From: Podarcis vaucheri
Lineage: Eukaryota
Length of the DNA: 64,000 nucleotides
NCBI GenBank assembly: GCA_965113315.1
Contig: OZ220367.1
Reading direction: 5' to 3' (one strand)
This document shows positions 55,201 through 57,237 of this stretch, piece after piece (position 1 is the stretch's first letter; each line of letters begins with the position of its first letter). The position numbers were made by a program.

Positions 55201-57237
55201 ACTGAAGCACTTCCTAGTTTTTCAGACCAAAGAAAATCTGAAAATTCTTCAAATTAAAATTAATGTTCTTATTTTGTTATTGCTCCATTAAGGTACTTTT
55301 TGTACAGGGATAGCTGAGAACAGGAACAAATTTGGGGGGAGGGCATTCATTTCAATCATAGATGTCGGCACAAACCAAGAAGTCATTAAATTTTCCCCAT
55401 TTACCTCCAAATAACCATCCTATAGTGGTTTATGTTCTGCTATTTCTCCTATACTGGTTTCATCCAAATATCAAGAGACTTAGCTGGGAGCTTCTCCCTA
55501 GGGAACAGATCAGTTATGGGCTATTTAGGTTGCAACCCTATAAACATTTACCTAGGAACAAGTCCCACTGAACTCAACTGGGAGGGCCACTTGCAGTCCC
55601 ACCACTGAGTATTGCTTGCCATGTTGGGATGGGAAACAGAGCCTTCTCAGCAACTGCACCCCAACTTTTTGCCATTTCTAAAAACCTGTATTTTCTCCTG
55701 AGCCTTTGGAGGAATCAATTAATCCTGCCTTGGGGCCAGGTTGTCTGCACTGCATAGTTTTAATACTGTAATGTTTGTACTGTAATGTATGCAATTGATT
55801 TTAATTAACTATGGTTTACAATGTTCTACTATTGTTCTACACCACTTTGGAAACTGGTGAAAGGTAAGTTTAATTAAACTAAATTCAGTAAGACTTACTT
55901 CTGAGTAGACATCAATAGGATCACGTTAAACTGTCAAGACTTAATCCCATCCAGTTGGCTATTTTCTTTAAAAATTTTGCCAAAGAAAATTTAATATTTT
56001 TGCCAAAGAAAACCATTTTGTGATGCAGCTTTCCTTTGATTTCCACAATGTAACTTCATCCACTGAAGGCAGGCCATATGGGAAGATGTAAAATGCACTG
56101 TGTCCTCAAAGGTCCCAAGTCCTTTTCACATTGTGTGTATGAAGTGAGGGAAGAATTGGAACCAGATTAACTGCGTGTAGGCTCTATTCAGATCTTAATA
56201 TGAAAAGGAGTGGAAGTGGAAGTGGGAACTGCAAACGTAGTCTACATTACACAATATGTATTCTGGTTAATATTTTGCATCCGCTACATGGGGAAGGGCA
56301 ATAGCTCAGTGACAGAGCAGGTTCAGTCCCTGATATCTCCAAAGTCCCCTACCTACACTGTAGAGCTGCTGCCAGTCAGTGCAGATGATACCAAGGACCC
56401 AGCTACACAGCTGCAAATAAAAACGTTTTAAATGTGTTGTAAGGTGAAATATACAAATGTGACACTAGATGGCGACAGTGAGCTGTGCAAAATTCAATGT
56501 ATTTTTCACAACTTTTTTTAAAAAAAAGCATTTTCACTTTTTTCCGGGTCGGGTTGGCTCGCCTGCATTTGGCCTTTCTGCTTATCCCTACACACCAATA
56601 TGAAACCCACCACCATGGAGATCCTGCTGCTTCTCTTGGCTGCATTCCCTGTCCTGGGGGCCAATGATCCTACTGATCCAAACAGCCCCTTTTATTACGA
56701 CTGGTACTTGCTGCGTGTTGGCGGTTTGATTGTTGCTGGTGTACTCTGTTTTCTGGGAATTGTTATCCTGCTGAGCGGAAAGTGCAAATACAAACCTAAG
56801 AGGAAAAACAGTGTCCACACCGTGCAAAAGCTCCCGCTTGCAGGAGAAATCAGTGAATGCTGAGTGAAGATAATGACTGCTCCCACTAACATACAAGCCA
56901 TACCTGTCTCCTCTCTCAATTGATGTAACACACTGGATCTTTCAGTGTGTTTTTGGGCCCTCACACCTGTATTAGGTTTTGTTTTGTTGGGGTTTTTTTT
57001 TAAAGAGACATATAATAAAATTCTGGTGTTTTTCCTGGAGGGAAAAAAAAGCATTTTCACAGCGTTTTGTGTGTGTATGTGTGTGTGTAGATTCCACCCT
57101 AGTTAGATGAGGAAATGATTTGCCTCGGTATAACACTGCTTCCTATGAATGACTCAACAGGACCAATGACATATATATACAAACACACATATACAAAGTA
57201 TCCCAAGCCAAGACAAATAATTTATTAAGTGATAGGA

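What the first reader, a model, noticed from the sequence alone, without database searches (positions are those of the whole stretch)
56520..57060. Full-length FXYD3-like retrocopy with an intact ORF: candidate lizard Na,K-ATPase regulator retrogene
Seen: an intronless 87-aa FXYD ORF with 5' UTR, 3' UTR and AATAAA, an exact 18-bp TSD and a TTTT/AAAA nick site; a second ATG at 56615 has a strong Kozak context (CACCATGG). Known: FXYD genes are multi-exon Na,K-ATPase modulators, and these junctions are hallmarks of L1 target-primed reverse transcription. Inference: a young retrocopy, implying germline or early-embryo expression of the parent gene, that may be expressed or may simply not have decayed yet.
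Basis: partly seen in the sequence, partly recalled or inferred. Interest (0 to 1): 0.7.

Follow-up and report, generated by a model that had tools for sequence, protein, structure and literature searches.

The report
FXYD3 processed retrocopy in a lacertid lizard
This is an intronless, reverse-transcribed copy of a wall-lizard FXYD3-like sodium-pump regulator gene that still has an open reading frame but most likely is an ordinary processed pseudogene that has not yet decayed.

Summary
Observation confirmed. An 87-codon ORF (56600-56863, +) is a clear FXYD protein (Pfam PF02038, E=1.5e-20). It sits in a 505-bp mRNA-like insert with a 62-nt 5'UTR, a 179-nt 3'UTR and AATAAA 23 nt before an A-run. 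The insert is flanked by an exact 18-bp repeat at a T7/A8 site. No 18-mer repeat appeared in 0 of 40 simulations.

A second copy of the interrupted host repeat (window 37-227) runs straight through the site with one copy of the duplicated target. An L1-clade ORF2 with 667 open codons lies in the same window.

The source is the Podarcis FXYD3-like gene (95% identity). The copy differs at S37L, C64Y, M75V and T84I. C64 is Cys in 23 of 24 named relatives.

One automatic P. muralis model (P0032) carries L37/Y64/V75 and translated 5'UTR, so the insertion is present in a second genome.

No CpG island or promoter evidence lies nearby. dN/dS and expression could not be tested.

Verdict: L1-type retrocopy, near certain; probably a still-intact processed pseudogene (about 0.65). 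Ordinary; low interest.

The parts
56520..56537 (+). 5' target-site duplication AAAAAAAAGCATTTTCAC, directly preceded by T7 (56513-56519), which gives a TT/AAAA-type nick site
56538..56599 (+). 5'UTR-derived segment, 62 nt with 3 CpG. An exon-exon junction of the parent mRNA is inferred near 56577. Parent isoforms share ...(L)CLSLHTN-M and diverge upstream of it, while the copy reads through without a break
   Evidence: the junction position is an inference from protein isoforms
56600..56863 (+). Intact 87-codon FXYD ORF plus TGA. It has a signal-peptide-like N-terminus, FYYD at residues 31-34 and the TM segment [19 protein letters not shown]. It differs from the Podarcis parent at S37L (TTG), C64Y (TAC), M75V (GTG) and T84I (ATC). 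A second in-frame ATG lies at 56615
56864..57042 (+). 3'UTR-derived segment, 179 nt with 0 CpG. AATAAA is at 57014-57019, and the insert ends 23 nt after it
57043..57060 (+). 3' target-site duplication. Its first 8 A (57043-57050) may be partly or wholly the remnant of the poly(A) tail
56380..56519 (.). Upstream part of the older interspersed repeat that the retrocopy interrupted. It is 87% identical to window 50-174 and 79% identical to 2160-2050
57061..57107 (.). Downstream continuation of the interrupted repeat, including a (TG)n stretch
37..227 (.). Paralogous, uninterrupted copy of the same repeat. It serves as an empty-site proxy: upstream flank, a single AAGCATTTTTAC, then the downstream flank, all contiguous
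10972..12972 (-). L1-clade ORF2 fragment with 667 codons free of stops (RT plus C-terminal part). It shows that the kind of machinery that makes such copies is resident and not long decayed

Best explanation
A spliced, polyadenylated mRNA of the Podarcis-lineage FXYD3-like gene was reverse-transcribed and inserted by an L1-type element. This was the 87-aa isoform, which has a non-coding first exon. The endonuclease nicked a T7/A8 site inside an older interspersed repeat. The A-tail primed on the T-run, and second-strand cleavage 10-18 bp away produced the duplicated AAAAAAAAGCATTTTCAC. The 505-bp insert brought the UTRs and the whole ORF but no promoter. Since then it has most likely drifted neutrally as a processed pseudogene. 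The ORF is still open only because it is short and the copy is not old. Shown: the insert anatomy, the duplication, the nick site, the paralogous empty site, the resident L1, the Podarcis origin, and presence in a second genome. Inferred: the absence of introns relative to the parent, the lack of expression, and neutrality.
For: Retrocopy:
- Exact 18-bp duplication bracketing a 5'UTR-ORF-3'UTR-AATAAA unit at a T7/A8 site. 0 of 40 simulations gave any such 18-mer.
- The paralogous repeat copy at 37-227 is continuous across the site with one copy of the target.
- There is no other FXYD-like segment in the 64 kb; the next best tblastn E-value is 0.67.
- Parent isoform and read-through models (P0002, P0031, P0023, P0029, P0030, P0021, P0027, P0016, P0017, P0018) diverge at fixed points. 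These lie before CLSLHTN, at A14/D26, before D34-W35, after S59, and after G82. That pattern implies a multi-exon parent, and the copy is collinear across all of these points.
- FXYD2 is described as having seven exons (PMC12860976, passage seen).
- An L1-clade ORF2 with 667 open codons lies in the window. The best PDB match is human LINE-1 ORF2p at E=1.6e-74, against 3.3e-11 for the best non-L1 entry and 2.1e-09 for the best chain named R2.

Podarcis origin:
- 95% identity to the P. muralis/raffonei protein.
- The copy shares Y36, which is seen in all 5 Podarcis rows and in none of the 19 other named rows.

Leaning towards a pseudogene:
- 4 replacements on the copy against 0 on the parent, with Lacerta as outgroup.
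- C64Y removes a Cys present in 23 of 24 named relatives; the exception is a read-through model. It corresponds to the second Cys of the juxtamembrane CxC pair, which the review PMC7953255 calls conserved among FXYDs and a site of palmitoylation/glutathionylation (passages).
- L at position 37 is seen in 0 of 24 rows.
- No CpG-island-like window lies nearer than 2201-2700.
- The surroundings are repeats, and neighbouring and antisense ORFs have no Pfam hits (0 of 7).
- Of 14 members of the three 90% clusters, only one, a UniRef-only automatic model, carries the copy's substitutions; none of the NCBI-sourced members does.
- Only 30 of 783 possible single-base changes create a stop, so an open 87-codon frame is expected by chance at this divergence.
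Against: - The ORF, start codon, FXYD motif, TM glycines and S59 are intact in both genomes where the copy is seen (2 of 2: the window and P0032).
- An automatic annotation of P. muralis treats it as coding.
- In Anolis, 217 of 404 retrocopies were intact and 136 were estimated to be functional (PMC3136929, passages). The prior for function in lizards is therefore not small.
- The 4-versus-0 relative-rate contrast is not significant by an exact test (two-sided binomial p=0.125, my arithmetic).
- Position 37 is variable in the wider family. It is R in Zootoca and in the shark FXYD of 2zxe_G.
- C62, the first Cys of the pair, is kept.
- No synonymous-site data and no expression data were available.
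- The poly(A) remnant is at most 8 nt.
Confidence: 0.65

Rival explanations
1. Functional retrogene. The copy is transcribed, either from an upstream repeat-derived or host-gene promoter (as in the P. muralis model, whose first exon lies at 56288-56303) or from its own 5' end. It would then encode a Podarcis-specific FXYD3 paralogue that modulates Na,K-ATPase, perhaps with altered regulation because the second juxtamembrane Cys is gone.
For: The ORF is intact in 2 of 2 genomes. All core FXYD features except C64 are kept. An automatic coding model exists in P. muralis. A high share of lizard retrocopies is intact and constrained (PMC3136929). The 5'UTR part keeps 3 CpG with o/e 0.75, against a window value of 0.27.
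Against: The copy has 4 replacements against 0 in the parent, including loss of a Cys that is Cys in 23 of 24 relatives. No CpG island lies nearby. In the window, the P. muralis model's upstream exon would need a GC donor, and it lies in repeat-like sequence. No NCBI-sourced member of the clusters carries the copy's substitutions. Between the two genomes, the ORF is not visibly better conserved than the translated 5'UTR: 2 changes in 87 codons against 1 in 23.
Confidence: 0.27
2. Retrocopy made by a reverse transcriptase other than L1, for example a BovB/RTE or CR1/L2-type element, fragments of which are also in the window.
For: RT fragments of other LINE types occur in the window at 38776-39324 (weak RVT_1). 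The RTE/BovB-like C-terminal ORFs at 46463-46993 and 48883-49224 are a recalled resemblance with no Pfam hit. The A-tail remnant is very short.
Against: The junctions show the TT/AAAA-type site, a duplication starting with an A-run and a polyadenylated mRNA template. By established knowledge these are the L1 signature. The one long open RT ORF in the window is L1-clade. Retrocopy numbers across chordates correlated with LINE1 and with no other LINE type (PMC3136929, passage).
Confidence: 0.05
3. Artefact or DNA-level event: cDNA contamination or mis-assembly, or a segmental duplicate that later lost its introns.
For: An intronless cDNA-like segment is what contamination would look like.
Against: The insert is embedded with a precise duplication in a repeat whose paralogue is continuous across the site. 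The same copy, with the same three substitutions and flank-derived sequence, is modelled in an independent P. muralis assembly. Loss of all introns by a DNA-level route would not create a duplication starting at an AATAAA-proximal A-run.
Confidence: 0.02

Closest known systems
Podarcis FXYD3-like gene (P0001 = XP_053254340.1 P. raffonei / XP_028598492.1 P. muralis; isoforms X1/X2 P0002, P0031)
   Same: 83 of 87 residues are identical, the length is the same, and the Podarcis-specific Y36 is shared. The copy's 5'UTR, translated in frame, gives the CLSLHTN that precedes the start codon in the long parental isoforms.
   Different: The copy is contiguous where the parent's isoform and read-through models imply exon boundaries. 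It carries L37, Y64, V75 and I84. It lies in a repeat-rich region with no other FXYD exon within 64 kb.
P0032 = UniRef100_A0A670IDB8, automatic FXYD model of Podarcis muralis (116 aa)
   Same: It shares L37, Y64 and V75. Its residues 7-29 are the in-frame translation of the copy's 5'UTR and the end of the duplication. Its first five residues, MGKGN, equal the start of the window ORF at 56288. It is therefore the same insertion at the same locus.
   Different: It differs at 3 of 110 comparable residues: V/I in the UTR part, R2 against K2, and T84 against I84. The window is therefore not that reference assembly. The model's N-terminal exon is probably an annotation artefact (my inference).
Mammalian and other solved FXYD proteins (7wyu_G, FXYD4 2jp3_A, shark phospholemman-like 2zxe_G, phospholemman 2jo1_A)
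   Same: These share the FXYD motif, the single TM with conserved glycines, and the basic juxtamembrane stretch. E-values are 2.3e-14 to 4.3e-09.
   Different: In the three alignments printed (7wyu_G, 2jp3_A, 2zxe_G), each keeps the second Cys (KCRCK / KCKCR) where the copy has KCKYK.
L1-mediated processed pseudogenes / retrocopies of vertebrates (e.g. the 404 retrocopies catalogued in Anolis, PMC3136929)
   Same: The anatomy is the same: an intronless mRNA copy, a polyadenylation signal, an A-run, a target-site duplication and an A/T-rich nick site.
   Different: Nothing categorical. The A-tail remnant is unusually short (at most 8 nt). The other duplication-flanked insert in the window (51136-51566) looks the same. 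So does the 3' end of the resident L1.

Membership tests
FXYD family (Pfam PF02038 ATP1G1/PLM/MAT8) | Profile match above the curated cut-off | tested here: met
   72.7 bits against a cut-off of 26.9, E=1.5e-20, residues 28-69
FXYD family (Pfam PF02038 ATP1G1/PLM/MAT8) | F-x-Y-D motif followed by a single TM segment with conserved glycines and a terminal Ser | tested here: met
   F31-Y32-Y33-D34 and [19 protein letters not shown] align column for column with 24 named relatives
FXYD family (Pfam PF02038 ATP1G1/PLM/MAT8) | Conserved juxtamembrane cysteine pair (CxC, PLM Cys40/Cys42) | tested here: not met
   C62 is kept, but C64 is Tyr. Cys occupies this column in 23 of 24 named relatives. The review PMC7953255 calls both Cys conserved. 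This does not remove family membership by descent, but it argues against conserved function
FXYD family (Pfam PF02038 ATP1G1/PLM/MAT8) | Association with and modulation of Na,K-ATPase | not testable with these tools
   This needs co-expression and pump assays
L1-type processed retrocopy | Target-site duplication bracketing the mRNA-like unit | tested here: met
   Exact 18 bp; 0 of 40 simulations gave one
L1-type processed retrocopy | Insertion at a TT/AAAA-type endonuclease site | tested here: met
   T7 (56513-56519) directly before the duplication's A8
L1-type processed retrocopy | Polyadenylation signal and poly(A) tail at the 3' end | tested here: inconclusive
   AATAAA lies 23 nt before an A8 run, but that run is also the start of the duplication. 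The tail is 0-8 nt
L1-type processed retrocopy | Lacks the introns of a multi-exon parent located elsewhere | tested here: inconclusive
Exon boundaries were inferred only from the points where isoform and read-through protein models diverge. No parental exons lie in the window
L1-type processed retrocopy | Empty (pre-insertion) site | tested here: met
   Paralogous only: the repeat copy at 37-227 is continuous across the site with one target copy. An orthologous empty site could not be tested
Functional retrogene | Intact ORF conserved in orthologues | tested here: met
   Open in the window and in the one other genome seen (P0032), 2 of 2. This is weak evidence, since only 30 of 783 single-base changes make a stop
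Functional retrogene | Purifying selection (dN/dS well below 1) | not testable with these tools
   No parental or orthologous nucleotide sequence was available. The protein-level proxy of 4 against 0 replacements points the other way, but p=0.125
Functional retrogene | Transcription and a usable promoter | not testable with these tools
   No RNA data. No CpG-island-like window lies within about 54 kb upstream

The most novel reading that the evidence does not exclude
The copy is an expressed, Podarcis-specific FXYD3 paralogue. Its loss of the second juxtamembrane cysteine (C64Y, shared by both genomes) would give a Na,K-ATPase regulator that escapes thiol-based regulation (glutathionylation or palmitoylation at that site). 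It would be one of several FXYD3 retrocopies in wall lizards, alongside the further single-isoform 'FXYD3-like' loci XP_028572453.1 and XP_053251570.1.
Probability: 0.12. Interest if true: 0.4.

Novelty: new member of a known kind. Interest (0 to 1): 0.15.

Why it matters
It matters little beyond annotation. It is a clean, well-bounded example of L1-type mRNA retroposition in a lacertid genome. It shows that FXYD3-like mRNA was present in the germline or early embryo of the Podarcis lineage. It also flags an automatic protein entry (A0A670IDB8) as a retrocopy-derived model whose N-terminus is probably artefactual. If the copy turned out to be expressed, it would be a natural C-to-Y variant at a regulatory cysteine of an FXYD protein. 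It could also serve as a presence/absence marker within Podarcis.

Tried and rejected
- Second FXYD copy or parental exons in the window: none found (tblastn, next best E=0.67).
- Rfam at gathering thresholds over the whole window: 0 matches.
- ARAGORN on 55800-57600: 0 genes. The tRNA-SINE look of 56290-56350 stays an impression.
- Pfam on three antisense/overlapping ORFs, the upstream MGKGN ORF and three neighbouring ORFs: 0 of 7 with a family.
Whether the copy lies in an intron of a host gene is therefore unchecked.
- Target-site duplication for the resident L1: only a low-complexity 15-mer was found, so none is established.
- Exhaustive representative search: 253 clusters at E<=1e-3, 55 at <=1e-10, 0 at <=1e-30. 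The conservation counts rest on the 24 named proteins only.
- Literature, none relevant to an FXYD retrocopy in reptiles (listings and abstract starts seen only): FXYD + retrogene, 5 papers; Podarcis + retrogene, 4 papers hold the terms and 3 were listed; FXYD3 + lizard, 4; FXYD + processed pseudogene, 7. The 2026 preprint 10.64898/2026.06.26.734816 has no occurrence of FXYD, Podarcis, lizard or squamate in its main text.
- Assembly artefact and DNA-level duplication were considered and rejected (see rivals).
- The spliced P. muralis model was compared exon by exon only. The start of the ORF at 56288 was compared with its residues 1-5, and the stop-to-stop frame 56522-56860 with its residues 5-116. 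The joined step was left out.
- Nothing in the window was taken for human.

Full report
**What is there.** Window 56520-57060 holds an mRNA-shaped insert.
- An exact 18-bp direct repeat, AAAAAAAAGCATTTTCAC, lies at 56520-56537 and 57043-57060. It brackets 505 bp.
- The insert consists of a 62-nt leader (56538-56599), an 87-codon ORF with TGA (56600-56863) and a 179-nt trailer (56864-57042).
- AATAAA is at 57014-57019, 23 nt before the A-run that starts the 3' repeat.
- The 5' repeat is directly preceded by seven T (56513-56519).
The first ATG has A at -3.
- The ORF is an FXYD protein by Pfam: PF02038, 72.7 bits against a cut-off of 26.9, E=1.5e-20.
- The antisense ORFs over the region have no family.

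**Is it more than chance?** Setting microsatellites aside, the 64-kb window has exact 18-mers repeated at 100-2000 bp at three places only. One is the edge of an ATT microsatellite (41234/42073). One is another insertion (51118/51567). The third is this one. None appeared in 0 of 40 first-order Markov simulations of the window.

**Independent support for the insertion boundaries.** The sequence just upstream (56394-56519) is itself an interspersed repeat. It is 87% identical to window 50-174 and 79% identical to 2160-2050. Flank-by-flank alignment shows that the copy at 37-227 runs without interruption. It goes from the upstream flank, through a single AAGCATTTTTAC, into the downstream flank (57061-57107). 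This is a paralogous empty site. The FXYD unit landed inside an older repeat, exactly between the two copies of the duplicated target.

**Where it came from.** The window has no N, is 42% G+C and has CpG o/e 0.27, which is vertebrate-like. I took nothing in it for human.
- Of 25 candidates, 21 proteins matched at E<=1e-3. The best are 'FXYD domain-containing ion transport regulator 3-like' of Podarcis raffonei/muralis (P0001, 95% identity over 87 aa). Other lacertids and then other squamates follow.
- Against P0001 the copy differs at four residues: S37L, C64Y, M75V and T84I. The copy's codons are TTG, TAC, GTG and ATC.
- The copy shares Y36. This state is found in all 5 Podarcis rows and in none of the other 19 named rows, where Lacerta and Zootoca have H. 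The template was therefore a Podarcis-lineage mRNA, made after the split from Lacerta and Zootoca.
- No other FXYD-like segment lies in the window.

**Is the parent multi-exon?** I could not reach lizard genomic DNA. The evidence is therefore indirect.
- Parental isoforms of P. muralis, P. lilfordi, Lacerta and Zootoca share ...(L)[12 protein letters not shown] and have unrelated sequences upstream of it.
- Read-through or exon-skipping models diverge at fixed points. P0021 and P0018 diverge before D34-W35, P0021 and P0017 at S59, and P0027 after G82. P0016 skips residues 15-25.
- These are the marks of several small exons, as known for the family. FXYD2 has seven exons (PMC12860976, passage seen).
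- The copy is collinear across all of these points.
- Its leader, read in frame, gives ...[11 protein letters not shown]. It therefore spans the junction between a different, non-coding first exon and the common exon, near 56577.

**The machinery.** ORF 10972-12972 (-) has 667 codons without a stop. It has an RVT_1 domain. It matches human LINE-1 ORF2p residues 600-1224 at E=1.6e-74, while the best non-L1 reverse transcriptase entry reaches only 3.3e-11 and the best chain named R2 only 2.1e-09.
- A second insert (51136-51566) also has an exact 18-bp duplication starting with an A-run, and it ends a few bases after an AATAAA.
- The L1's own 3' end looks alike, although I found no duplication for it.
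- The very short A-tail of the FXYD copy (0-8 nt, merged with the duplication) is thus the local pattern rather than an anomaly.
- Across chordates, retrocopy numbers followed LINE1 numbers and no other LINE type (PMC3136929, passage).

**The same insertion in a second genome.** The exact 87-aa protein is not in the 15-billion-protein collection. Among the 14 members of the three 90% clusters, one carries L37, Y64 and V75. It is P0032, UniRef100_A0A670IDB8, a P. muralis record held only by UniRef.
- Its residues 7-29 are the in-frame translation of the end of the duplication and the copy's leader.
- Its first five residues, MGKGN, equal the start of the window ORF at 56288.
- I compared this spliced model exon by exon and left the joined step out.
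- Over the 110 comparable residues it differs from the window at three: V/I in the leader, R2/K2, and T84/I84.
- The insertion therefore predates the split between the window's genome and the P. muralis reference, and three of the four replacements are shared.
- Whether the window is another Podarcis species or a divergent P. muralis lineage I cannot say.
- In the window, that model's intron would need a GC donor at 56304, and its first exon lies in repeat-like sequence. I take the N-terminus to be an annotation artefact (inference).

**Functional or not?**

For function:
- The frame, start codon, FXYD motif, TM glycines and S59 are intact in both genomes.
- In Anolis, 217 of 404 retrocopies were intact and 136 were estimated to be functional (PMC3136929).

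Against function:
- With Lacerta as outgroup, the copy has four private replacements and the parent none. By an exact binomial this is p=0.125 two-sided, which is suggestive only.
- C64Y removes a Cys that is present in 23 of 24 named relatives; the exception is a read-through model. All three solved FXYDs shown in alignment also keep it.
- The review PMC7953255 states that PLM Cys40 and Cys42 are conserved among FXYDs and are sites of palmitoylation and glutathionylation. That C64 corresponds to Cys42 is my inference from the CxC pattern.
- L37 occurs in 0 of 24 rows, but this position is variable (R in Zootoca and in shark FXYD), so it weighs little.
- No CpG-island-like window lies nearer than 2201-2700.
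- None of the NCBI-sourced cluster members carries the copy's substitutions.
- Between the two genomes the ORF (2 changes in 87 codons) is not visibly better kept than the translated leader (1 in 23).
- An open frame is uninformative here, because only 30 of 783 single-base changes make a stop.

dN/dS and expression, the decisive tests, were out of reach.

**Verdict.** This is an L1-type processed retrocopy of the Podarcis FXYD3-like gene, which is near certain. It is most likely a still-open processed pseudogene (about 0.65), and a functional retrogene is not excluded (about 0.27). I found no paper describing it in the searches, or in the main text of the preprint. It is a new member of a very well known kind, and interest is low.

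Noticed in passing
window 51118-51584: A second duplication-flanked insertion. The exact 18-bp AAAAAAGGTCATAATCTG lies at 51118 and 51567 around a 431-bp insert that ends ...AATAAAAAACATTTTTTT. It has no ORF of note and only one short match elsewhere in the window (33291-33354, 81%). It is probably a 5'-truncated LINE or another retroposed RNA.
   Followed up: partly
window 10590-12972 (-): An L1-clade element with 667 stop-free ORF2 codons. Its 3' end reads ...GCAATAAAAAATA T12 A7. 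No target-site duplication was found.
   Followed up: partly
window 38776-39324 (+), 46463-46993 (+), 48883-49224 (-): Other LINE fragments. One has a weak RVT_1 hit. The other two are related ORFs (…WCWRRLLRVPWTARRSN…) that look like RTE/BovB C-termini. That name is recalled; Pfam gave no hit.
   Followed up: partly
protein records P0001 / P0026 (XP_028572453.1 P. muralis; XP_053254340.1 and XP_053251570.1 P. raffonei, on contigs of 93.6 and 92.5 Mb): Podarcis has at least one further single-isoform 'FXYD3-like' locus besides the multi-isoform gene. Its protein is identical to the parent or differs by one residue (E7A). It may be another, younger retrocopy or a functional duplicate. Its gene structure could not be checked.
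   Followed up: no
protein P0024/P0030 (Zootoca vivipara FXYD3): The annotated Zootoca protein reads FYYN-WHR: Asn in place of the Asp of the FXYD motif, and Arg at position 37. It is the only one of 24 named rows without D34.
   Followed up: no
protein P0009 (UniRef record labelled Ailuropoda melanoleuca): The sequence looks squamate rather than mammalian, closest in pattern to the Python row (…KPKR…SEC tail). This may be a mislabelled or contaminant record.
   Followed up: no
window 13715-14143, 40354-42142, 46032-46206, 57061-57090, 57250-57270: Long (ATT)n, (GA)n and (TG)n microsatellites. The ATT arrays recur three times between 40.3 and 42.1 kb.
   Followed up: no
window 56288-56431 (+): A 47-codon ORF starting MGKGN lies in sequence with a tRNA-SINE look (…GCTCAGTGACAGAGCAGGTTCAGTCCCTG…). 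The P. muralis model uses its first 16 bases as exon 1. ARAGORN and Rfam found nothing here.
   Followed up: partly
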